Below, piece by piece: positions 4,290 to 63,233 of a stretch of DNA of 64,000 nt. The stretch's first letter is position 1; each line of letters opens with the position of its first letter. Under the pieces are notes generated by a model. That model was given only the letters and a program-made list of their open reading frames with translations. It was not told the origin of the DNA and ran no database searches. The position numbers were made by a program, and so were the translations under genes. Source of the DNA: Enterobacteria phage P922; sequence record OR999189.1. One strand, written 5' to 3'.

Positions 4290-4362
4290 TGGGAATTAGC
4301 CAAGTTGGTAAGGCACTGGATTTTGATTCCAGGATGCAAAGGTTCGAGTCCTTTATTCCCAG
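4290..4362 (+). tRNA. tRNA-Gln (anticodon UUG)
   Basis: Cloverleaf: acceptor TGGGAAT/ATTCCCA, anticodon loop TTTTGAT, T-arm GGTTCGAGTCC. Confidence 0.85.
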
Positions 4363-4363
4363 C

Positions 4364-4450
4364 GCGAGAATGGTCAAATTGGTAAAGGCACAGCACTTAA
4401 AATGCTGCGGAATGATTTCCTTGTGGGTTCGAGTCCCACTTCTCGCACCA
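4364..4450 (+). tRNA. tRNA-Leu (anticodon UAA), long variable arm, CCA encoded
   Basis: Acceptor GCGAGAA/TTCTCGC, loop CTTAAAA, T-arm GGTTCGAGTCC. Confidence 0.85.
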
Positions 4451-4455
4451 AATTT

Positions 4456-4529
<74 letters not shown>

Positions 4530-4539
4530 ATTTAATTTA

Positions 4540-4612
4540 CTCCGTGTAGCTAGTTTGGTAGAGCGCCTGATTTGGGATCAGGAGGTCCAAGGTTCAAATC
4601 CTTGTATGGAGA
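4540..4612 (+). tRNA. tRNA-Pro (anticodon UGG)
   Basis: Anticodon stem CCTGA/TCAGG with loop TTTGGGA; T-arm GGTTCAAATCC. Confidence 0.75.
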
Positions 4613-4614
4613 CT

Positions 4615-4704
4615 GGAGGCGTGGCAGAGTGGTTTAATGCACCGGTCTTGAAAACCGGCAGTCGCTCCGGCGACTCATAGGTTCAAATCCTATCGCCTCC
4701 GCCA
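4615..4704 (+). tRNA. tRNA-Ser (anticodon UGA), long variable arm
   Basis: Acceptor GGAGGCG/CGCCTCC, loop CTTGAAA, T-arm GGTTCAAATCC, CCA encoded. Confidence 0.85.
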
Positions 4705-4709
4705 GTTTT

Positions 4710-4785
4710 GCTGATTTAGCTCAGTAGGTAGAGCAACTCACTTGTAATGAGAAGGTCGGCGGTTCGATTCCGTTAATCAGCACCA
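4710..4785 (+). tRNA. tRNA-Thr (anticodon UGU)
   Basis: Acceptor GCTGATT/AATCAGC, loop CTTGTAA, T-arm GGTTCGATTCC. Confidence 0.85.
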
Positions 4786-4786
4786 A

Positions 4787-4861
4787 GGCCCTGTAGCTGG
4801 AAGGTTCAAGCAAGCGACTCATAATCGCCAGATGGTGGTTCAATTCCACCCAGGGCCACCA
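4787..4861 (+). tRNA. tRNA-Ile (CAU anticodon, probably lysidine-type) or Met
   Basis: Acceptor GGCCCTG/CAGGGCC, loop CTCATAA, T-arm GGTTCAATTCC. Confidence 0.75.
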
Positions 4862-4870
4862 AATTAATTT

Positions 4871-4957
4871 GGGGAGTTATCCCGTAGAGGTAGCGGTGTG
4901 GACTGTAAATCCATTGTCATTGCGACTCGGGTGGTTCGACTCCATCACTCCCCACCA
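4871..4957 (+). tRNA. tRNA-Tyr (anticodon GUA), long variable arm
   Basis: Acceptor GGGGAGT/ACTCCCC, loop CTGTAAA, T-arm GGTTCGACTCC; not among the eight T4 tRNAs I recall. Confidence 0.75.
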
Positions 4958-4961
4958 ATTT

Positions 4962-5036
4962 GGATGTGTAGCTCAATGGCAGAGCGATCGCCTGTTAAGC
5001 GATTGGTTATAGGTTCGAATCCTATCACGTCCGCCA
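4962..5036 (+). tRNA. tRNA-Asn (anticodon GUU)
   Basis: Anticodon stem ATCGC/GCGAT with loop CTGTTAA; T-arm GGTTCGAATCC. Confidence 0.75.
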
Positions 5037-5040
5037 AATC

Positions 5041-5116
5041 CGAGGCATAGCTCAGAAGGAAGAGCAAGGACCTTCTAAGTCCTAGGTCGTAGGTTCGATC
5101 CCTACTGCCTCGACCA
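5041..5116 (+). tRNA. tRNA-Arg (anticodon UCU)
   Basis: Acceptor CGAGGCA/TGCCTCG, loop CTTCTAA, T-arm GGTTCGATCCC. Confidence 0.85.
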
Positions 5117-14837: not shown

Positions 14838-14867
14838 TTTACTTTTCCTCTTGACTGTGGTATAATT
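14838..14867 (+). promoter_or_regulatory. T4-type early promoter (regB)
   Basis: GTTTAC ... TGTGGTATAAT. Confidence 0.6.
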
Positions 14868-14893: not shown

Positions 14894-15355
14894 ATGACTA
14901 TCAACACAGAAGTTTTTATCCGTCGAAATAAGCTCCGTCGTCACTTTGAGTCGGAGTTTCGTCAAATTAACAATGAGATTCGTGAGGCATCAAAAGCAGC
15001 AGGGGTCTCATCGTTTCATCTAAAATATTCTCAGCATCTTCTTGATCGTGCAATTCAACGGGAGATTGATGAGACATATGTTTTTGAATTATTCCACAAA
15101 ATAAAAGACCATGTTTTAGAAGTTAATGAATTCCTGAGTATGCCTCCGCGTCCTGACATTGACGAGGATTTTATTGATGGGGTTGAATATCGTCCTGGGC
15201 GTTTAGAAATCACAGATGGAAATCTTTGGCTTGGATTTACAGTTTGTAAACCTAATGCGAAGTTCAAAGACCCGTCGCTTCAGTGCAGGATGGCAATTAT
15301 TAACAGTCGTCGTTTACCAGGAAAGGCTTCTAAAGCAGTAATTAAAACTCAATGA
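14894..15355 (+). CDS. regB: RegB site-specific endoribonuclease
   Basis: 153 aa; matches recalled T4 RegB length and N-terminus MTINTEVF... Confidence 0.8.
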   Translation: MTINTEVFIRRNKLRRHFESEFRQINNEIREASKAAGVSSFHLKYSQHLLDRAIQREIDETYVFELFHKIKDHVLEVNEFLSMPPRPDIDEDFIDGVEYRPGRLEITDGNLWLGFTVCKPNAKFKDPSLQCRMAIINSRRLPGKASKAVIKTQ

Positions 15356-15362
15356 GGTAAGC

Positions 15363-15908
15363 ATGAGAAAAGCACTACTCGCTGGTCTATTGGCCATTTC
15401 AATGATGGCACATAGCTCCGAGCATACTTTCAGTAATGTCCAACTCGATAACATGCGTTACGCATATCAATTCGGGGAACAATTTTCTAAGGATGGAAAA
15501 TATAAAACACACAAAAATATCCACAAGAGTGGATTAGGTCATATAATGGCTGCTATTTTATGGCAAGAAAGCTCTGCCGGAGTTAATTTAAAATCTAAAC
15601 CAAAGCATCATGCCTATGGAATGTTCCAAAATTATTTGCCGACCATGCGAGCAAGAGTTAAGGAACTTGGTTATAATATGACCGATGCTGAAATAAAAAG
15701 AATGTTGAATAAACGGTCCAATTCAGCTTCCTGGGCGTACATTGAACTTTCTTATTGGTTAAATATACATAAGGGCGATATAAGAAAGGCAATATCCTCT
15801 TATAATTCGGGATGGAATGTTAAAGCAGGTTCTAAATATGCTTCTGAAGTCCTAGAAAAGGCTAACTACCTTAAAAATAATAAACTGTTGGAAATAGTAA
15901 ATGACTAA
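15363..15908 (+). CDS. secreted lytic transglycosylase-like protein (SLT domain)
   Basis: Signal peptide; WQESSAGV ... AYGMFQ motifs of lytic transglycosylases. Confidence 0.65.
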   Translation: MRKALLAGLLAISMMAHSSEHTFSNVQLDNMRYAYQFGEQFSKDGKYKTHKNIHKSGLGHIMAAILWQESSAGVNLKSKPKHHAYGMFQNYLPTMRARVKELGYNMTDAEIKRMLNKRSNSASWAYIELSYWLNIHKGDIRKAISSYNSGWNVKAGSKYASEVLEKANYLKNNKLLEIVND

Positions 15909-16242
15909 AATTTTGGTTTTATGTGTAGGATTAATTTCATTTTCTGCGTTAGCAAATACATCATACACTGAAATTAGAGAGTATGTAAACCGTACTGCCG
16001 CGGATTATTGTGGGAAAAATAAAGCATGCCAAGCTGAATTTGCGCAGAAATTAATATATGCATATAAAGACGGAGAAAGAGATAAATCAAGCAGATATAA
16101 AAATGATACTTTATTAAAACGATATGCTAAAAAGTGGAATACCTTAGAATGTTCAGTTGCGGAGGAGAAAGATAAAGCCGCTTGTCATTCAATGGTTGAC
16201 CGTTTGGTAGATTCTTATAATCGAGGATTGAGTACTAGATGA
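15901..16242 (+). CDS. secreted Cys-containing small protein
   Basis: 113 aa with N-terminal signal peptide. Confidence 0.45.
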   Translation: MTKILVLCVGLISFSALANTSYTEIREYVNRTAADYCGKNKACQAEFAQKLIYAYKDGERDKSSRYKNDTLLKRYAKKWNTLECSVAEEKDKAACHSMVDRLVDSYNRGLSTR

Positions 16243-16718
16243 TTGTAAAATATATCAAGGGCGATATTGTCGCCCTATTTCTTCAAGGTAATATTATTGC
16301 GCACGGATGCAACTGCTTCCACACAATGGGCTCTGGTGTAGCGGGTCAATTAGCAAGAGCCTATCCCAAAATTTTAGAAATAGATAAAACCACTACCGAA
16401 TACGGTTCTCGTGATAAATTAGGCGATATGTCTATTGTTTTTAAGCATAGTCCTACGGGATTTGGTATATGCTATAACCTGTATACGCAATACGAACCGG
16501 GTCCTAATCTTGATTATGGTGCTTTAGTAAATTGCATGATAGAATTAAATCTACAGGCAGAAACCCTTTTGTTTAAACCAGTAATTTACATTCCACGCAT
16601 AGGTTGTGGTATTGCTGGCGGTGATTGGGATAAGGTTTCTAAATTAATCGACATGTTTACTCCTGATATTGATTTAATAGTGGTGGATTATGAAAGCACA
16701 TTACCCACATCCGTTTGA
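16239..16718 (+). CDS. macrodomain protein (ADP-ribose binding/processing fold)
   Basis: N-terminal IAHGCNCFHTMGSGVAGQLA resembles the macrodomain N-x(6)-G-x-G-V-x-G motif; 159 aa. Confidence 0.6.
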   Translation: MIVKYIKGDIVALFLQGNIIAHGCNCFHTMGSGVAGQLARAYPKILEIDKTTTEYGSRDKLGDMSIVFKHSPTGFGICYNLYTQYEPGPNLDYGALVNCMIELNLQAETLLFKPVIYIPRIGCGIAGGDWDKVSKLIDMFTPDIDLIVVDYESTLPTSV

Positions 16719-16902
16719 CCCTAAAAATAAAGTGGAAATTATTCGTCAATGGGAACGCATTTGCCGTACTAAATGCCCAATTAATAGTCTACATGATGTA
16801 GATAAAGACTACATCGGAACATTCGTTGAATATACCTTTATTGATAAGAAAGGTCGTAAACAACATGTAGAAGAATATTGCTTAAAGGTTACATGGTTAT
16901 GA
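16690..16902 (+). CDS. hypothetical small protein
   Basis: 70 aa ORF. Confidence 0.4.
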   Translation: MKAHYPHPFDPKNKVEIIRQWERICRTKCPINSLHDVDKDYIGTFVEYTFIDKKGRKQHVEEYCLKVTWL

Positions 16903-17270: not shown

Positions 17271-17852
17271 ATGGCGAGTTTAATTTTTACTTATGCAGCA
17301 ATGAATGCTGGAAAATCTGCTTCTCTTTTGACTGCTGCACATAATTATAAAGAACGTGGAATGAGTGTATTAGTTCTTAAACCTGCTATTGATACTCGCG
17401 ATTCTGTCTGTGAAGTCGTTTCTCGCATTGGAATTAAACAGGAAGCGAATATTATTACGGATGATATGGATATTTTTGAGTTCTATAAATGGGCTGAAGC
17501 ACAAAAAGATATTCATTGTGTATTTGTAGATGAAGCACAGTTTTTAAAAACTGAACAGGTGCATCAATTAAGCCGAATTGTCGATACATATAATGTTCCT
17601 GTTATGGCTTATGGTCTAAGGACTGATTTCGCCGGAAAATTATTTGAAGGTTCTAAAGAACTTTTGGCGATTGCGGATAAACTTATTGAACTAAAGGCAG
17701 TTTGTCATTGCGGTAAAAAAGCGATTATGACAGCTCGATTAATGGAAGATGGAACACCAGTTAAAGAAGGTAATCAAATCTGTATTGGTGATGAAATTTA
17801 TGTTTCTTTGTGTAGAAAACATTGGAACGAATTAACTAAAAAGCTCGGTTAG
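17271..17852 (+). CDS. tk: thymidine kinase
   Basis: 193 aa; AMNAGKS P-loop and C-terminal Cys cluster typical of TK. Confidence 0.95.
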   Translation: MASLIFTYAAMNAGKSASLLTAAHNYKERGMSVLVLKPAIDTRDSVCEVVSRIGIKQEANIITDDMDIFEFYKWAEAQKDIHCVFVDEAQFLKTEQVHQLSRIVDTYNVPVMAYGLRTDFAGKLFEGSKELLAIADKLIELKAVCHCGKKAIMTARLMEDGTPVKEGNQICIGDEIYVSLCRKHWNELTKKLG

Positions 17853-18800: not shown

Positions 18801-18824
18801 AGTCTCCTTCGGGAGACTTTTTTC
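18801..18824 (+). terminator. intrinsic terminator
   Basis: AGTCTCC-TTCG-GGAGACT + TTTTTT. Confidence 0.7.
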
Positions 18825-19810: not shown

Positions 19811-20368
19811 GTGAGTGAGTCGAAGAGAATCAATATGAAACGATTAGTACTAGAAGTTAGTTCACTTTTTGGTGAATTGGCTATAGAAAAAGTAAATAAT
19901 ATGTATCGTTTGACGCAAGAAGACGATATGCTATATTTTACGCCTAGCGAAATTATTCATTTAACCCAAATTGAAAAACCTTACACTGATAAAATTGTAA
20001 GCATTAATGATGAGCATAAAATTCATTTCTATTCTTTATGCCCAGGATTTAACATTGAAAGCGAGTCAATATGCTTATCAATTAATAATTGGGATAATTT
20101 TATAACTAAAATTAAATATTTTTATTATTCTAACGAAAGAAAACATGGTTTAAAATGGTTTAAAAATTGCAATGCTATTATTACTAACGATTGCAATCAG
20201 AATGATGAAACTCTTTTAAATGTATCAAAATGTTATGAAGAGGGAGATGTCTTAACTATTCGTCAAATTGATGATTTTCGATCACATATTGTCACATTTA
20301 CCAAAGACGAAGCTATTGCGCTAAAGACTTATCTTGATTCTGTCATTCCAACTATGATTTCAAAGTGA
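19811..20368 (+). CDS. hypothetical protein, paralog of the next gene
   Basis: GTG start after AAAGGAG; shares GFNIE(S/D)E and C-terminal EA-A-K-YL-V-P-M motifs with 20375-20896. Confidence 0.5.
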   Translation: MSESKRINMKRLVLEVSSLFGELAIEKVNNMYRLTQEDDMLYFTPSEIIHLTQIEKPYTDKIVSINDEHKIHFYSLCPGFNIESESICLSINNWDNFITKIKYFYYSNERKHGLKWFKNCNAIITNDCNQNDETLLNVSKCYEEGDVLTIRQIDDFRSHIVTFTKDEAIALKTYLDSVIPTMISK

Positions 20369-20374
20369 GGAAAT

Positions 20375-20896
20375 ATGTTTATTTCAAGTGAAAGCGGTTT
20401 AATTCGTGTTGAATTTAAAAATGACATCTTCCTTATTCAAGGAGATGATATTATTAAAATGAGTTATGACGAAATCAAGAAAATTTGTCATATTCTTGAA
20501 AGTCGTGGAAAAGGAAATGCTACTATCGATATAGGTGATTTATGGGTGACACTTTATGAAGTATCCGAAGGATTTAACATTGAAGATGAAAACAACATCT
20601 TAGCTATTGATAAAAGAAGTGATTTGTTTGATGTGTTAAAAGTTTATGAACAGTCAAACGGTGGAAGAAAAGCTGCATTGATTTATCAAAAACCACATTC
20701 ATGTGGAACTGCTTCAATCATTTCAAATATTGAAGATGAAACTGATACTTATATGTGTGTTTTAAAAGCTGGTGGTGACCGTCATCCGGATTTTATTTCT
20801 ATTCGTCAAAACAATGGAGAAATTTCATTATCAAAATCAGAAGCTGAAGCTATGATTAAGTATTTAACAACTGTTACACCTTCAATGAAAGGATAA
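20375..20896 (+). CDS. hypothetical protein, paralog of 19811-20368
   Basis: 173 aa; shared motifs with the preceding gene. Confidence 0.5.
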   Translation: MFISSESGLIRVEFKNDIFLIQGDDIIKMSYDEIKKICHILESRGKGNATIDIGDLWVTLYEVSEGFNIEDENNILAIDKRSDLFDVLKVYEQSNGGRKAALIYQKPHSCGTASIISNIEDETDTYMCVLKAGGDRHPDFISIRQNNGEISLSKSEAEAMIKYLTTVTPSMKG

Positions 20897-20898
20897 TT

Positions 20899-21360
20899 AT
20901 GATTATTAATGAAAGCTCTTGGCACTATAAATTATTCAAAATGTTTAATGATGAATGGAAACGACCTAAGACACTGTGTGCATACTTTTGGTCTATTGTT
21001 ATCCCTACATTTTTCGTTTCTTTTTTCGGATGTACTATACTCGCAGGTCTAACTATTATCTGTGCAGAAATCATGCAGAAATGGTTTATTTATGGTAGTT
21101 TATGGACTCTTATTCCATCAGCATTTATACTTGCTATTTTGCTTGTTTTACTTATTATTGGTTCATTTGTTATTCCTGCACAACTACATGAAAAATATAA
21201 AGATTATAAATGGAAAAAGGATTATGCTTTACATGTAGAAAATATTGATAGGGCGTATAAAGGTTTACCTCCTATTCAACCCAAGAAATCTATTATCGTC
21301 GAATTTTTAAAAACGCGTAAAGCTAAAGTATGTCCTGTTATTGAATATAAGGCTGAATGA
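20899..21360 (+). CDS. membrane protein (two TM helices)
   Basis: 153 aa with long hydrophobic segments. Confidence 0.5.
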   Translation: MIINESSWHYKLFKMFNDEWKRPKTLCAYFWSIVIPTFFVSFFGCTILAGLTIICAEIMQKWFIYGSLWTLIPSAFILAILLVLLIIGSFVIPAQLHEKYKDYKWKKDYALHVENIDRAYKGLPPIQPKKSIIVEFLKTRKAKVCPVIEYKAE

Positions 21361-22370
21361 TGAAAACAGTAATGAAAAGCTATTTCGGTAGTCATCTTTA
21401 TGGAACTTCTACTCCAGAATCTGATGTAGATTTTAAAGAAATCTTTGTTCCTCCTGCTCGTGATATTCTTATCGGAAATGTTAAAGAGCATATGAGTAAA
21501 AACACTAACAACACATCATCTAAAAACACTAAAGATGATATTGACCATGAACTATACAGTCTTAAGTATTTCTTTAAATTAGCAGCAGATGGTGAAACTG
21601 TAGCATTGGATATGCTTCACACTCCACCTGAGCTAGTGGTTAAATCTGATTTGCCTGATGTATGGAAGTTTATTCAAGACAATCGTTCTCGTTTTTATAC
21701 GACTAACATGAAATCCTATTTAGGATATGTCCGCAAGCAAGCTTCTAAATATGGTGTTAAGGGTTCTCGTTTGGCTGCATTACGTGATGTATTGAAAGTA
21801 GTTAATCAAATCCCCGATCAGTGGGTTGATTACCGAGAAGATGGAACACAAGGACAACGTCGTACTAAAGTTGAAGATATTAAGCATCGTCTTCCAGAGA
21901 ACGAATTCTGCGAATGGGTATTCCATAATCATGAGAAAACAGGCCCACAGACGTTCTACACAGTGTTGGGTCGTAAATATCAGACAACGCTTTCTCTTAT
22001 TGAGCTTAAGCAGTCACTGAACAAATTAGATGCTGAATACGGTGAACGTGCTCGTAAGGCCGAAGCCAATGAAGGTATTGACTGGAAAGCTCTGAGTCAT
22101 GCTTGCCGTGGTGGACTCCAACTATTGGAAATTTACAAAACTGGTGACTTGGTTTATCCACTCCAAGATGCTCCATTTATTCTCGACGTGAAGTTGGGTA
22201 AACATCCATTTAAAACGGTTCAAGAGTTTTTGGAAGATGTGGTCGATCAAGTAGAAGCAGCATCTACTGAAGCTTCTAAGAACGGTATGCAGCAAAAAGT
22301 AGACATGGGTTTTTGGGATGACTTCCTTGAGAGGGTTTATCTTGAAAACCACCGAAGTTATTATAAATGA
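21360..22370 (+). CDS. pol-beta superfamily nucleotidyltransferase-like protein
   Basis: N-terminal YFGSHLYGTSTPESDVDF fits the hG[GS]x(9-13)DxD nucleotidyltransferase signature; ends at a strong terminator. Confidence 0.6.
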   Translation: MKTVMKSYFGSHLYGTSTPESDVDFKEIFVPPARDILIGNVKEHMSKNTNNTSSKNTKDDIDHELYSLKYFFKLAADGETVALDMLHTPPELVVKSDLPDVWKFIQDNRSRFYTTNMKSYLGYVRKQASKYGVKGSRLAALRDVLKVVNQIPDQWVDYREDGTQGQRRTKVEDIKHRLPENEFCEWVFHNHEKTGPQTFYTVLGRKYQTTLSLIELKQSLNKLDAEYGERARKAEANEGIDWKALSHACRGGLQLLEIYKTGDLVYPLQDAPFILDVKLGKHPFKTVQEFLEDVVDQVEAASTEASKNGMQQKVDMGFWDDFLERVYLENHRSYYK

Positions 22371-56578: not shown

Positions 56579-56872
56579 ATGAAAAAATTTGTTTTTGCTG
56601 CAATTTTTGCTTTGGCTTCTTGTACTGCTCAGCCTGCTATGGCAGGTTATGATAAAGATTTGTGCGAATGGTCTATGACTGCAGATCAGACTGAGGTTGA
56701 AACTCAGATTGAAGCAGATATTATGAATATCGTTGAGCGTGATCGCCCTGAAATGAAAGCTGAAGTACAAAAACAGCTTAAATCTGGTGGTGTAATGCAG
56801 TATAATTATGTTCTGTATTGCGATAAAAACTTCAATAATAAAAATATCATCGCTGAAGTGGTAGGTGAATAA
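56579..56872 (+). CDS. sp: Spackle-like periplasmic protein (sp)
   Basis: 97 aa with signal peptide; T4 Sp size and position. Confidence 0.5.
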   Translation: MKKFVFAAIFALASCTAQPAMAGYDKDLCEWSMTADQTEVETQIEADIMNIVERDRPEMKAEVQKQLKSGGVMQYNYVLYCDKNFNNKNIIAEVVGE

Positions 56873-57498
56873 TGCTTTATCAAATGCACAAGTGCAAAGA
56901 CACGTACAAATATAAAGGTGCCCAGTGTTATATCATTAATCGTGAAAACGCAGGTCCAGGTCATTCGCATCAATCGCGGTTTGTATTCGTTAAAAACAAC
57001 GAAATTATAGCAGTTGCTAATTACATGCTTGCGACTAGTGATGTTAATCCGGTGCCTTTCACATATTATAATCTAATGGACTTGGCGTACGATTATAATT
57101 GGTTTAATCATGATAATTTGGCTCATATTGAAGGCGTAGGATTTGACATCTCTTATTCTAGTTACTCGTTGTGTCCTATGAGCCGAGCTCATAAAGAGCC
57201 TGAATATTTTTCATTTCGTCGGCGTGTAGACTTTGAACGCAGCACAGAGTATATCGGTGGAATCTTTGTTAAAGATAATCGAATTACTCGCATTATTTAT
57301 CCTTTGGGCTGTGGTCAAAAAGATATTGATGTTGATTTAGACTTTACTGAAAACATCATTAATCATATTGCTTCTGTGTATTTTGATATTGATCATAAAA
57401 TTGTAATATGTGGATATGAATTACCATCAGAAAAACAGTCTAAAGTGAATGTTTCTATTGATGACCAAATTTTTAATGCTTTTATGAATAGAGGTTAA
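56872..57498 (+). CDS. hypothetical protein (61.2 position)
   Basis: 208 aa ORF. Confidence 0.5.
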   Translation: MLYQMHKCKDTYKYKGAQCYIINRENAGPGHSHQSRFVFVKNNEIIAVANYMLATSDVNPVPFTYYNLMDLAYDYNWFNHDNLAHIEGVGFDISYSSYSLCPMSRAHKEPEYFSFRRRVDFERSTEYIGGIFVKDNRITRIIYPLGCGQKDIDVDLDFTENIINHIASVYFDIDHKIVICGYELPSEKQSKVNVSIDDQIFNAFMNRG

Positions 57499-57666: not shown

Positions 57667-58695
57667 ATGTCATCAATACCTTGGATTGATAATGAGTTTG
57701 CATATCGTGCGTTAGCTCATTTACCTAAATTCACACAAGTAAATAATAGTTCAACTTTTAAATTACGGTTTAGATGCCCTGTTTGTGGAGATTCAAAAAC
57801 CGATCAAAATAAAGCCCGTGGATGGTATTATGGTGATAACAATGAAGGAAATATTCACTGTTATAACTGTAACTATCATGCGCCAATCGGAATATATTTA
57901 AAGGAGTTTGAACCTGATTTATATCGTGAGTATATCTTTGAAATAAGAAAAGAAAAAGGTAAAAGTCGTCCAGTAGAAAAACCTAAAGAACTTCCTAAAC
58001 AACCTGAGAAGAAAATAATTAAATCTCTTCCGTCATGCATTAGATTAGATAAACTGGCGGAAGACCATCCAATTATAAAATACGTAAAAGCTCGCTGTAT
58101 TCCAAAGGATAAATGGAAATATCTTTGGTTTACAACCGAATGGCCTAAATTGGTTAATAGTATAGCACCGGGAACATATAAAAAGGAAATATCTGAGCCT
58201 CGTCTTGTTATTCCAATTTATAATGCTAATGGAAAAGCTGAGTCTTTTCAAGGACGTGCATTAAAGAAAGATGCTCCTCAAAAATATATCACCATCAAAG
58301 CTTATCCTGAGGCAACAAAAATCTATGGTGTTGAACGAGTTAAAGATGGTGATGTATATGTTTTAGAAGGACCTATAGATTCACTTTTTATTGAAAATGG
58401 TATAGCTATTACAGGTGGTCAATTAGACCTAGAAATTGTTCCATTTAAAGATAGACGTGTGTGGGTTTTAGATAATGAACCTCGTCATCCTGATACTATT
58501 AAACGAATGACTAAATTAGTTGATGCAGGAGAAAGGGTTATGTTTTGGGACAAATCTCCCTGGAAATCAAAAGATGTTAATGATATGATTAGAAAGGAAG
58601 GTGCAACCCCTGAACAAATTATGGAATATATGAAAAATAATATTGCGCAGGGGTTGATGGCTAAAATGCGGCTATCTAAATATGCTAAGATTTAA
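57667..58695 (+). CDS. 61: DNA primase gp61
   Basis: 342 aa; zinc-binding CPVCGD ... CYNC and TOPRIM-like core. Confidence 0.9.
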   Translation: MSSIPWIDNEFAYRALAHLPKFTQVNNSSTFKLRFRCPVCGDSKTDQNKARGWYYGDNNEGNIHCYNCNYHAPIGIYLKEFEPDLYREYIFEIRKEKGKSRPVEKPKELPKQPEKKIIKSLPSCIRLDKLAEDHPIIKYVKARCIPKDKWKYLWFTTEWPKLVNSIAPGTYKKEISEPRLVIPIYNANGKAESFQGRALKKDAPQKYITIKAYPEATKIYGVERVKDGDVYVLEGPIDSLFIENGIAITGGQLDLEIVPFKDRRVWVLDNEPRHPDTIKRMTKLVDAGERVMFWDKSPWKSKDVNDMIRKEGATPEQIMEYMKNNIAQGLMAKMRLSKYAKI

Positions 58696-62010: not shown

Positions 62011-62634
62011 ATGATTATTAATCTTGCAGATGTTGAACAGTTATCTATAAAAGCTGAAAGTGTTGATTTTCAATATGATATGTATAAAAAGGTCTGTGAA
62101 AAATTTACTGATTTTGAACAGTCAGTTCTTTGGCAATGTATGGAAGCCAAAAAGAATGAAGCTCTTCATCGGCAGTTGAATAAAATCATTAAAAAGCATT
62201 TAACTAAATCACCTTATCAGCTATATCGTGGTATATCAAAATCGACAAAAGAGCTCATTAAAGATTTACAAGTCGGAGAAGTGTTTTCAACGAACAGGGT
62301 AGATTCATTTACTACTAGTTTGCATACAGCGTGTTCTTTTTCTTATGCTGAATATTTTACTGAAACAATACTTCGCTTAAAAACTGATAAAGCTTTTAAT
62401 TACTCTGACCATATCAGCGATATTATACTTTCTTCTCCTAATACTGAGTTTAAGTATACATATGAAGATACTGATGGATTAGATTCAGAACGTACTGATA
62501 ACTTAATGATGATTGTGCGTGAACAAGAATGGATGATTCCAATTGGAAAGTATAAAATAACTTCTATTTCAAAAGAAAAATTACACGATTCATTTGGAAC
62601 ATTTAAAGTGTATGATATTGAGGTAGTTGAATGA
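62011..62634 (+). CDS. modB: ADP-ribosyltransferase ModB
   Basis: ATG 62011 after GGAGG gives 207 aa; R-S-ExE motifs (YRG, FSTN, EQEWMIP). Confidence 0.75.
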   Translation: MIINLADVEQLSIKAESVDFQYDMYKKVCEKFTDFEQSVLWQCMEAKKNEALHRQLNKIIKKHLTKSPYQLYRGISKSTKELIKDLQVGEVFSTNRVDSFTTSLHTACSFSYAEYFTETILRLKTDKAFNYSDHISDIILSSPNTEFKYTYEDTDGLDSERTDNLMMIVREQEWMIPIGKYKITSISKEKLHDSFGTFKVYDIEVVE

Positions 62635-63233
62635 AATATTCAGCAATGCAATTAAAAGATTTTAAAATCAAATCAATGGATGCATCGGTGCGTGCTTCTA
62701 TTCGTGAAGAATTACTTTCTGAAGGATTTAATTTATCCGAAATTGAACTTTTAATTCATTGTATTACTAATAAGCCAGACGACCACTCTTGGTTAAATGA
62801 AATAATCAAATCTCGTTTGGTTCCAAACGATAAACCTCTTTGGAGAGGTGTTCCAGTTGAGACTAAGCAGGCGTTAAATCAAGGAATTGATATTATTACA
62901 TTTGATAAAGTAGTATCAGCTTCATATGATAAAAATATAGCTCTACATTTTGCTTCTGGATTAGAATACAACACACAAGTTATTTTTGAATTCAAAGCTC
63001 CTATGGTATTTAATTTCCAGGAATATGCTATAAAAGCTCTACGTTGTAAAGAATATAGTCCAAGTTTTAAGTTTCCGGATAGTCATCGCTATCGTAATAT
63101 GGAATTAGTTTCAGATGAACAAGAAGTAATGATACCAGCTGGAAGTGTATTTAGAATTGCGGATAGATATGAGTATAAAAAGCATTCAACATACACTATC
63201 TATACTCTTGATTTTGAAGGATTTAATCTATAA
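62631..63233 (+). CDS. modA: ADP-ribosyltransferase ModA
   Basis: 200 aa; R-S-ExE motifs (LWRG, VSAS, EQEVMIP). Confidence 0.75.
   Translation: MKYSAMQLKDFKIKSMDASVRASIREELLSEGFNLSEIELLIHCITNKPDDHSWLNEIIKSRLVPNDKPLWRGVPVETKQALNQGIDIITFDKVVSASYDKNIALHFASGLEYNTQVIFEFKAPMVFNFQEYAIKALRCKEYSPSFKFPDSHRYRNMELVSDEQEVMIPAGSVFRIADRYEYKKHSTYTIYTLDFEGFNL

What the first reader, a model, noticed from the sequence alone, without database searches (positions are those of the whole stretch)
16239..16718. Phage-encoded macrodomain protein
The 159 aa product carries IAHGCNCFHTMGSGVAGQLA, resembling the macrodomain ADP-ribose-binding motif (N-x(6)-G-x-G-V-x-G). The same window encodes ADP-ribosyltransferases ModA and ModB, and macrodomains reverse ADP-ribosylation (for example DarG against DarT) or process NAD-derived defence signals. 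It could therefore be an anti-defence eraser or a regulator of phage-made ADP-ribosylation.
Basis: partly seen in the sequence, partly recalled or inferred. Interest (0 to 1): 0.5.

Follow-up and report, generated by a model that had tools for sequence, protein, structure and literature searches.

The report
T4-type phage macrodomain gene tk.4 (adfM)

Summary
The ORF at 16239-16718 (+, 159 aa) and its motif are real. It is a macrodomain: Pfam Macro scores above the curated cut-off, and an AlphaFold model (pLDDT 90.8) matches TARG1, BT1257, Poa1p, DarG and SCO6735.

The window is a Tequatrovirus. By synteny (regB, vs.1, vs, tk.4, tk.3, tk.2, tk.1, tk) the gene is the ortholog of T4 tk.4, annotated in RefSeq as carrying an A1pp motif. 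A November 2025 preprint named T4 tk.4 adfM: it was the only hit in a transposon screen on DarTG2 cells, and its knockout sensitises T4 to DarTG2. So the anti-defence eraser reading is supported, and the finding is already known.

The suggested link to ModA/ModB is weak. Both genes are in the window, but 45 kb away.

Two refinements:
- **Active site.** The family has an invariant Gln (Q84) where DarG and TARG1 have their catalytic Lys. Its active site therefore resembles Streptomyces SCO6735, which cleaves thymidine-linked ADP-ribose with Gln85, rather than DarG or PhiKZ AdfM.
- **Swapped allele.** This allele is only 58% identical to T4 Tk.4, while flanking genes are 90-100% identical (vs 96%, tk.3 90%). 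It is an old allele cassette exchanged by recombination, and its own activity is untested.

The parts
16239..16718 (+). tk.4 / adfM coding sequence: a 159-aa stand-alone macrodomain
   Evidence: ORF. Pfam Macro above cut-off. AF2 model pLDDT 90.8. Foldseek matches TARG1, BT1257, Poa1p, DarG and SCO6735. Synteny with T2 and T4 tk.4. 58% identical to T4 Tk.4.
16302..16313 (+). H22-G-C-N25 motif at the end of strand 2. N25 aligns with SCO6735 N27, DarG's conserved Asn and PhiKZ AdfM N23. H22 aligns with SCO6735 H24 and Poa1p H23.
   Evidence: H22, G23, N25 and C26 are invariant in 37 homologs. Alignments. Mutational data for N27 and N23 are in PMC9411070 and PMC13309987.
16326..16343 (+). M30-G-S-G-V-A35, the G-x-G loop of the ADP-ribose binding cleft
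   Evidence: G33 and A35 are invariant; M30 and G31 are at least 90% conserved. G31 and G33 are also conserved across TARG1, DarG, PhiKZ and BT1257.
16476..16490 (+). N80-L-Y-T-Q84 motif. Q84 occupies the position of the catalytic Lys of DarG (K80) and TARG1 (K84), and of Gln85 of SCO6735.
   Evidence: N80, Y82, T83 and Q84 are invariant. MAFFT alignment. hhalign against DarG, probability 98.5%. hmmsearch against TARG1 and BT1257. hhalign against SCO6735/BT1257, probability 98.9%.
16593..16628 (+). P119-R-I-G-C-G-I-A-G-G-D-W130, the diphosphate-binding loop. A126 stands where TARG1 has the catalytic D125.
   Evidence: P119, G122, G124 and W130 are invariant. The motif is near-identical to PRIGCGLAGG(T/K)W of SCO6735 and BT1257.
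16277..16700 (+). Divergent allele cassette: the segment where DNA identity to T2/T4 falls to about 42-80%, between flanks that are 95-100% identical
   Evidence: Sliding DNA identity. Per-gene amino-acid identities. Third-codon-position identity of 0.32-0.60, and identical first 38 nt.
15901..16242 (+). Upstream gene vs (valyl-tRNA synthetase modifier). Its TGA stop overlaps the tk.4 ATG (ATGA), which suggests translational coupling.
   Evidence: Annotation of relatives.
16690..16902 (+). Downstream gene tk.3 (DUF7202), which overlaps the end of tk.4 by 29 nt
   Evidence: PF23832, E=3e-37. Annotation.
14838..14866 (+). Best sigma-70-like promoter match upstream of regB (TTTACT-17-TATAAT with TG). 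It is a candidate early promoter for the regB-vs.1-vs-tk.4-...-tk gene run.
   Evidence: This is a consensus match only; that it serves tk.4 is an inference.
18801..18818 (+). Terminator-like hairpin after rI.-1, the first one downstream of the gene run
   Evidence: A terminator is annotated at the equivalent place in phage SV76.

Best explanation
The gene is the ortholog of T4 tk.4 (adfM). It encodes a free-standing macrodomain hydrolase of the ALC1/TARG1-like class, made from the regB-vs-tk gene run.

Its most likely job is to strip ADP-ribose from thymidine bases that the host DarT2 toxin puts on single-stranded phage DNA. This would restore replication, so the phage escapes DarTG2 abortive defence. 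In effect it is an orphan antitoxin carried by the phage.

Catalysis is probably of the SCO6735 type. Q84 is held by N25 and positions the distal ribose, and a water molecule carries out the chemistry. The DarG/TARG1 lysine mechanism is unlikely because the lysine is absent.

What is shown here: the macrodomain identity, the orthology by synteny, the motif equivalences and the allele mosaicism. What is shown in the literature: T4 tk.4 is required for DarTG2 resistance, SCO6735 (Gln85) and PhiKZ AdfM cleave thymidine-linked ADP-ribose on DNA, and SCO6735 protects against DarT toxicity. What is inferred: this 58%-identical allele does the same, and it does so by hydrolysis.
For: - **Macrodomain.** Pfam Macro scores above its cut-off. 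The AF2 model has pLDDT 90.8 and its top structural matches are TARG1, BT1257, Poa1p, DarG and SCO6735.
- **Orthology.** The gene order regB-vs.1-vs-tk.4-tk.3-tk.2-tk.1-tk is the same as in T2/SV76 and T4. The protein is 58% identical to T4 Tk.4 over the full length without gaps.
- **Function of the ortholog.** T4 tk.4 was the only hit on DarTG2 cells, and its knockout sensitised T4 (preprint).
- **Conserved residues.** All 19 family-invariant residues are present in both the window allele and the T4 allele.
- **Active-site equivalence.** H22, N25 and Q84 align with SCO6735 H24, N27 and Q85. In SCO6735, Q85A abolishes and N27S nearly abolishes cleavage of thymidine-linked ADP-ribose, and the protein protects Streptomyces from DarT (PMC9411070).
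- **Precedent in another phage.** PhiKZ macrodomain AdfM removes DarT2-made ADP-ribose from DNA in vitro, and mutating the Asn equivalent to N25 reduces activity (PMC13309987).
- **DarG models.** The PADLOC and NCBIfam DarG models are the best defence or antitoxin matches, but weak at 27.5 and 27.7 bits.
Against: - No experiment exists on this allele. It shares only 58% identity with the tested T4 protein.
- For T4 Tk.4 itself, only genetics from a preprint is available. Hydrolysis of DNA-linked ADP-ribose was stated there as likely, not shown.
- The catalytic Lys of DarG/TARG1 is replaced by Gln, and TARG1 D125 by Ala.
- The two lysines that help SCO6735 bind DNA are not conserved: K34 aligns with S32, and K89 lies in a 5-residue loop that is absent here.
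- The nearest solved relative by sequence, BT1257, has no known function.
- Macrodomains of this class also act on proteins and small molecules.
Confidence: 0.7

Rival explanations
1. The protein counters DarT2 mainly by binding and blocking the toxin, or by shielding its DNA target, rather than by hydrolysing ADP-ribose.
For: Catalytically dead SCO6735 Q85A, DarG K80A and TARG1 K84A all inhibit DarT in vitro, and SCO6735 does so most strongly (PMC9411070). The deep allele divergence inside otherwise identical genomes is the pattern expected for a protein that must fit a variable partner.
Against: The residues that line the ADP-ribose pocket (H22, N25, G31, G33, N80, T83, Q84, G122, G124) are invariant or at least 90% conserved across 37 homologs down to 38% identity. 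This points to selection on catalysis. The protein lacks the C-terminal DarT-binding domain of DarG: it has 159 aa and matches only positions 2-142 of the 338-position DarG model.
Confidence: 0.1
2. The protein processes a small ADP-ribose derivative rather than modified DNA. Candidates are ADP-ribose-1''-phosphate (Poa1p-like phosphatase, as database names suggest), O-acetyl-ADP-ribose, or an NAD-derived defence signal.
For: PHROG 335 and RefSeq call it 'phosphatase' with an A1pp motif. Yeast Poa1p is among the closest solved relatives. H22 and T29 align with Poa1p H23 and S30, the residues mutated in PDB entries 6lfs and 6lft. A survey of viral macrodomains argued that many act on soluble ADP-ribose derivatives (PMC9503650).
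Against: The T4 ortholog has a specific phenotype on DarTG2, a DNA-modifying system. The 'phosphatase' label is inherited from the domain name, not from an assay. Poa1p F152 aligns with A126 here. No Thoeris or sirtuin context is seen near the gene.
Confidence: 0.1
3. The protein erases or tunes ADP-ribosylation written by the phage's own Alt/ModA/ModB enzymes on host proteins or RNA.
For: ModB and ModA are encoded in the same window.
Against: ModB and ModA lie 45 kb away in another gene cluster. From background knowledge, the T4 ARTs modify arginine, and ALC1-like macrodomains are not known to cleave arginine-linked ADP-ribose. In the HIDEN-SEQ passages read, tk.4 appears only as the DarTG2 hit. 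Homologs are present in thousands of phages; whether these carry Mod-like ARTs was not checked.
Confidence: 0.05

Closest known systems
T4 Tk.4 = AdfM (anti-DarT factor Macrodomain), bioRxiv 10.1101/2025.11.20.689424
   Same: Same position between vs and tk.3 in a near-identical gene run. Same length class (159 against 155 aa). Full-length gapless alignment at 58% identity. All family-invariant residues are shared.
   Different: 42% of residues differ, and synonymous sites are near saturation. The diphosphate loop reads GCGIAGGDW here and GAGIGKGNW in T4. There is a C-terminal extension that overlaps tk.3 by 29 nt. This allele has not been tested.
Streptomyces coelicolor SCO6735 (PDB 5e3b), a thymidine-ADP-ribose DNA hydrolase with catalytic Gln85
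   Same: Stand-alone ALC1-like macrodomain that is not encoded next to a DarT. It shares the H-x-C-N motif, the N-x-x-x-Q motif and the PRIGCG(L/I)AGG.W loop. hhalign probability is 98.9%, and Q84 aligns with Q85, N25 with N27 and H22 with H24. It cleaves thymidine-linked ADP-ribose and protects against DarT.
   Different: About 25% identity. The window protein lacks the 5-residue longer mobile loop containing K89 and has S32 in place of K34. It is viral rather than chromosomal. Unlike SCO6735, its regulation and substrates are untested.
DarG antitoxin macrodomain (T. aquaticus 5m31, M. tuberculosis 5m3i) and PhiKZ gp104 AdfM
   Same: Same fold class (TM 0.74-0.75). The conserved Asn and the G-x-G loop are shared. 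The biological target, DarT2-made thymidine-ADP-ribose, is the same as that proposed for Tk.4.
   Different: DarG and PhiKZ AdfM carry the FPTK motif with the catalytic Lys; this family has an invariant LYTQ. There is no C-terminal DarT-binding domain. The NCBIfam DarG score is 27.7 bits against a cut-off of 250. PhiKZ gp104 matches DarG at E=9e-25, whereas the window protein matches at 5e-5. The two phage proteins both named AdfM therefore belong to different macrodomain subfamilies.
Human TARG1/OARD1 (4j5r) and Bacteroides BT1257 (2fg1)
   Same: TARG1 is the best structural match. BT1257 is the best sequence and profile match, and it shares the Gln at the Q84 position.
   Different: The TARG1 catalytic dyad K84/D125 is replaced by Q84/A126. 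BT1257 has no assigned function.

Membership tests
Macro domain (Pfam PF01661) | Sequence score above the curated gathering threshold over the whole domain | tested here: met
   32 bits against a cut-off of 22, covering profile positions 2-117 of 118.
Macro domain (Pfam PF01661) | Three-layer alpha/beta/alpha fold with a central mixed sheet and a G-x-G loop at the ADP-ribose cleft | tested here: met
   The AF2 model has pLDDT 90.8 and pTM 0.87, with 6 strands and 5 helices alternating. There are 146 PDB matches with E<=0.001, and all 50 listed are macrodomains or designed enzymes with the same fold. G31-x-G33 is conserved.
Macro domain (Pfam PF01661) | Binds ADP-ribose | not testable with these tools
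   Needs ITC, a thermal-shift assay or a co-crystal.
T-even tk.4 / adfM orthologous group | Encoded between vs and tk.3 in the regB-...-tk gene run of a Tevenvirinae genome | tested here: met
   Flanking genes are 90-100% identical to those of T2.
T-even tk.4 / adfM orthologous group | Required for phage growth on DarTG2-expressing hosts | not testable with these tools
   Shown only for the T4 allele, in a preprint.
DarG antitoxin (NCBIfam NF048014, equivalog) | Score above the curated cut-off; two-domain protein with a macrodomain plus a C-terminal DarT-binding domain | tested here: not met
   27.7 bits against a cut-off of 250. Only profile positions 2-142 of 338 are matched, and the protein is 159 aa.
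DarG antitoxin (NCBIfam NF048014, equivalog) | Catalytic lysine (K80) in the FPTK motif | tested here: not met
   Q84 aligns with this Lys in MAFFT, hhalign and hmmsearch alignments. Gln is invariant in 37 homologs.
DarG antitoxin (NCBIfam NF048014, equivalog) | Encoded next to a darT toxin gene | tested here: not met
   The neighbours are vs and tk.3. A bacterial homolog is also stand-alone.
TARG1-type hydrolase | Lys84/Asp125 catalytic dyad | tested here: not met
   K84 is replaced by Q84 and D125 by A126. The TARG1 sequence used was verified against PDB 2lgr.
SCO6735-type (Gln) DNA ADP-ribosylhydrolase | Gln at the catalytic-Lys position, held by the conserved Asn; His at the start of the H-x-C-N motif | tested here: met
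   Q84 aligns with Q85, N25 with N27 and H22 with H24 by hhalign, probability 98.9%. The roles of these residues are described in PMC9411070.
SCO6735-type (Gln) DNA ADP-ribosylhydrolase | Extended mobile loop with K89, plus K34, which position the DNA | tested here: not met
   The 5-residue loop segment is absent and K34 aligns with S32.
Poa1p-type ADP-ribose-1''-phosphate phosphatase | Residues probed in the Poa1p structures (H23, S30, F152) and Appr1p phosphatase activity | tested here: inconclusive
   H22 and T29 align with H23 and S30, but F152 aligns with A126. The activity is not testable here, and the Poa1p structure paper is not in the library.

The most novel reading that the evidence does not exclude
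T-even phages may keep several ancient, recombining allele classes of tk.4/adfM, and apparently also of 61.2/adfA, because each class is tuned to a different set of host nucleic-acid ADP-ribosyltransferases. These could be DarT2 variants or other ARTs. On this reading, the window-type allele protects against systems that the T4-type allele does not.

In addition, the Gln-type Tk.4 lineage would be a recruitment of a housekeeping SCO6735/BT1257-like genome-protector macrodomain. This recruitment would be independent of the DarG-derived, Lys-type AdfM of PhiKZ.
Probability: 0.2. Interest if true: 0.55.

Novelty: already known. Interest (0 to 1): 0.25.

Why it matters
The practical value is annotation. 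Hundreds of T-even genomes label this gene 'phosphatase' or 'hypothetical protein', when it is the adfM anti-DarTG2 locus.

Two modest points go beyond the passages of the papers read here:
- **Two unrelated proteins share one name.** The phage proteins called AdfM have different catalytic centres: Gln-type in T-even phages and Lys-type in PhiKZ. Mechanistic conclusions should not be carried from one to the other.
- **The gene is a recombination cassette.** Alleles are as little as 58% identical inside otherwise 95-100% identical DNA. This matters when predicting the host range of therapeutic T-even phages on DarTG-bearing strains.

Tried and rejected
- **ModA/ModB link.** Both genes are present but 45 kb away, so this was rejected as context evidence.
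- **DarG family membership.** Rejected on score, domain architecture, catalytic Lys and lack of a darT neighbour.
- **TARG1 catalytic dyad.** Absent.
- **DarT next to bacterial homologs.** I looked next to one bacterial homolog of the family (P0094, Pelagimonas). There is none; the gene is stand-alone.
- **Poa1p structure paper.** I searched for it to compare active sites, but it is not in the library.
- **Single-sequence phmmer alignments.** Those to BT1257 and SCO6735 place the N-x-x-x-Q motif one or two residues out of register. Profile and profile-profile alignments agree on N80 with N and Q84 with Q, so I used those.
- **Chimeric query.** One search used a chimeric query (window residues 1-112 plus the SCO6735 C-terminal 30 aa) only to make the tool print the SCO6735 sequence. 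Its E-value is not evidence.
- **Rapid positive selection.** Considered as the cause of the allele divergence. Rejected because third-codon positions are also near saturation and the breakpoints are sharp.
- **Other ORFs in the interval.** The opposite strand and other frames of 16239-16718 hold only ORFs of 30 aa.

Full report
**Observation**

The window has an ATG-started ORF at 16239..16718 on the + strand encoding 159 aa. The string IAHGCNCFHTMGSGVAGQLA sits at residues 20-39. No competing ORF longer than 30 aa lies in the interval on either strand.

The product matches Pfam Macro (PF01661) at E=1.3e-7, 32 bits against a curated cut-off of 22, covering almost the whole profile. It also matches PHROG 335 at E=1e-71. 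tblastn finds homologs in 2,788 of 50,697 phage records.

**Fold**

I built an alignment of 37 homologs with 38-96% identity to the window protein (A1). With it, AlphaFold2 gave a confident model: mean pLDDT 90.8, pTM 0.87, with only the last five residues disordered.

Foldseek against the PDB returned only macrodomains, or designed enzymes with the same fold, among the 50 matches listed. The best were TARG1 (4j5r/4j5s), Bacteroides BT1257 (2fg1/2afc), yeast Poa1p (6lfq-6lfu), the DarG macrodomains of T. aquaticus and M. tuberculosis (5m31, 5m3i) and Streptomyces SCO6735 (5e3b). TM-scores were 0.67-0.75. Sequence searches of the PDB give the same set.

That test does not refute.

**Which gene it is**

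The window is a Tequatrovirus. The best match over 25 kb is 97.7% to Escherichia phage EcNP1/Nami, and the local 2.6 kb is 98.8% identical to Salmonella phage F13076.

The + strand order is regB (14894-15355), vs.1 (15363-15908), vs (15901-16242), the macrodomain gene, tk.3 (16690-16902), tk.2, tk.1 and tk (17271-17852). This is the order annotated in T2-like phage SV76 and in T4 itself. The gene is therefore tk.4.

T4 RefSeq already annotates tk.4 as 'phosphatase; contains A1pp phosphatase motif'. Other records call it 'macro domain protein'. The stop codon of vs overlaps the tk.4 start (ATGA), and tk.3 starts 29 nt before the tk.4 stop. The only strong sigma-70-like promoter match in the neighbourhood is upstream of regB, at 14838-14866. 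The first terminator-like hairpin on the + strand downstream of tk.4 follows rI.-1, at 18801-18818. That tk.4 is read as part of this gene run is an inference.

**What is known about it**

- **T4 tk.4.** A November 2025 preprint (HIDEN-SEQ, 10.1101/2025.11.20.689424) ran a T4 transposon library on E. coli expressing DarTG2. It found tk.4 as the single significant hit, and a clean knockout sensitised T4 to DarTG2. The authors renamed the gene adfM and said it 'seems likely' that it removes ADP-ribose from DNA. No enzymology was shown in the passages I read.
- **PhiKZ gp104.** A 2026 Cell Reports paper used the same name AdfM independently for this protein. It removes DarT2-made ADP-ribose from a TNTC oligonucleotide in vitro, and an N23A mutant is impaired (PMC13309987).
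- **Earlier hints.** Work on AdfN (T4 30.3, a NADAR enzyme against DarTG1) had noted that T4 lacking adfA and adfN is still resistant to DarTG2 and probably encodes a further factor (PMC11825919).

**Active-site comparison**

Across the 37 homologs the invariant residues are G8, H22, G23, N25, C26, G33, A35, D49, L61, G62, N80, Y82, T83, Q84, G88, P119, G122, G124 and W130.

Three independent alignments place Q84 at the position of the catalytic lysine of DarG (K80, motif FPTK) and TARG1 (K84):
- a MAFFT alignment with TARG1, two DarG macrodomains, PhiKZ gp104 and BT1257;
- a profile-profile hhalign against a DarG/PhiKZ alignment, probability 98.5%;
- an hmmsearch of the family profile against TARG1 and BT1257.

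TARG1 D125 corresponds to A126.

PhiKZ gp104, in contrast, has FPTK and matches DarG at E=9e-25. The window protein matches DarG only at 5e-5. It scores 27.7 bits against the NCBIfam DarG cut-off of 250 and covers only the macrodomain half of that model. So this protein is not a member of the DarG family, and the two phage 'AdfM' proteins belong to different subfamilies.

The Gln has a precedent. SCO6735 of Streptomyces coelicolor has Gln85 at exactly this position. It cleaves thymidine-linked ADP-ribose from DNA and protects against DarT. Q85A abolishes its activity and N27S nearly does. The authors propose a water-mediated mechanism in which Gln85, locked by Asn27, positions the distal ribose (PMC9411070).

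I recovered the SCO6735 sequence with a chimeric query used for that purpose only. hhalign of the Tk.4 family against SCO6735 plus BT1257 gives probability 98.9%, with H22 aligned to H24, N25 to N27 and Q84 to Q85. The diphosphate loop is nearly identical: PRIGCGIAGGDW against PRIGCGLAGGTW.

There are also differences. The 5-residue extension of the SCO6735 mobile loop that carries K89 is absent, and K34 corresponds to S32. So the protein works most like SCO6735 but is not a simple member of that group. A bacterial homolog (Pelagimonas, P0094) is a stand-alone chromosomal gene with no DarT nearby, as is SCO6735.

**Allele structure**

Identity to the T2-like phage SV76, gene by gene:

| Gene | Amino-acid identity |
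|---|---|
| regB | 99.3% |
| vs.1 | 98.9% |
| vs | 95.7% |
| tk.4 | 56.6% |
| tk.3 | 90% |
| tk.2 | 82.5% |
| tk.1 | 90.3% |
| tk | 100% |
| rI.1 | 100% |

BLASTP against T4 Tk.4 gives 58% identity. A sliding DNA comparison shows 95-100% identity up to about 16260. It falls to 42-80% up to about 16700 and returns to above 90% from about 16726.

The first 38 nt of the gene are identical to T4 and T2. After that, third-codon-position identity is only 0.32-0.60, and 41 of the 106 differing codons are synonymous changes. The alleles are therefore old and have been exchanged by recombination at the gene's edges. They are not the product of recent fast evolution.

In the phage collection, 318 records carry a window-type allele (at least 90% identical). 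For T4 Tk.4, 224 records are at least 90% identical and 159 are 80-90% identical. Metagenome proteins fill in 60-82% intermediates. Whether the window-type allele has the same specificity as the T4 allele is untested.

**Rivals**

- **Inhibition of DarT2 by binding.** This is possible, because dead SCO6735, DarG and TARG1 mutants inhibit DarT in vitro. However, conservation of the ADP-ribose pocket across the family argues for catalysis.
- **A small-molecule role** (Appr1p phosphatase, OAADPr deacetylase or a defence signal). Database names and similarity to Poa1p suggest it, but no assay does, and it does not explain the DarTG2 phenotype.
- **A role in reversing ModA/ModB/Alt modification.** It rests only on the genes sharing a 64-kb window. 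ModB (62011-62634) and ModA (62631-63233) are 45 kb away.

**Verdict**

This is a real feature, correctly read by the first stage, and already known. T4 tk.4 has long been annotated with an A1pp (macrodomain) motif and was shown in 2025 to be the anti-DarTG2 factor adfM.

This analysis adds two refinements. The family has a Gln-type, SCO6735-like catalytic centre rather than a DarG-like one. The window also carries a deeply divergent, recombined allele whose activity remains to be tested.

I put confidence at about 0.98 that it is a macrodomain and the tk.4 ortholog. I put it at about 0.7 that it protects against DarT2 by hydrolysing thymidine-linked ADP-ribose.

Noticed in passing
window 56872-57498 (+): A 208-aa ORF lies between the spackle-like ORF (56579-56872) and 61.1/primase (57667-58695), the position of T4 gene 61.2. 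Gene 61.2 is adfA, another anti-DarT factor (strain table of PMC11257639). The ORF is annotated '61.2' in phage AR1 at 75% identity. Like tk.4, it shows a bimodal identity distribution: 231 records at 90% or more and 254 at 60-80%. The closest relative at the tk.4 locus, F13076, lacks this gene.
   Followed up: partly
window 16258-16276: A perfect 8-bp stem with a 3-nt loop (AGGGCGATATTGTCGCCCT) lies inside the 5' end of tk.4, coding K-G-D-I-V-A-L. It falls in the 38-nt stretch that is identical in T4 and T2, just before the recombination breakpoint. Its function is unknown and it could be coincidental.
   Followed up: partly
window 16690-16718: In this allele tk.4 reads 9 codons past the place where T4 has its stop, so tk.4 and tk.3 overlap by 29 nt instead of 4 nt.
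   Followed up: yes
window about 16897; L001 3668-3880: T2-like phage SV76 has an extra ORF of about 370 bp between tk.3 and tk.2. It is absent from the window and from T4. Several other relatives show the same insertion as a two-piece match.
   Followed up: partly
window 19811-20368, 20375-20896 and 21357-22370 (+): Two tandem paralogs carry y05I-like putative transcription-factor domains (PF24449 and PF24448). They are followed, after a 153-aa hydrophobic (possibly membrane) ORF, by a 337-aa RlaP-family (RNA-repair-associated) nucleotidyltransferase. This stretch is not collinear with phage F13076, which annotates a 161-aa 'RNA polymerase ADP-ribosylase' at the equivalent place.
   Followed up: partly
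window 4290-5116 (+): A cluster of 10 tRNA genes (Gln, Leu, Gly, Pro, Ser, Thr, Met, Tyr, Asn, Arg). The closest annotated relative lists 8 tRNAs, with a homing endonuclease before the last (tRNA-Arg).
   Followed up: no
window 15363-15908 (+): vs.1 encodes a 181-aa protein with a signal-peptide-like N-terminus and an SLT lytic transglycosylase domain (PF01464, 23.4 bits against a cut-off of 21.3).
   Followed up: no
literature, not a coordinate: Two groups gave the name AdfM independently to non-orthologous macrodomains. T4 Tk.4 is Gln-type, and PhiKZ gp104 is Lys-type and DarG-like.
   Followed up: yes
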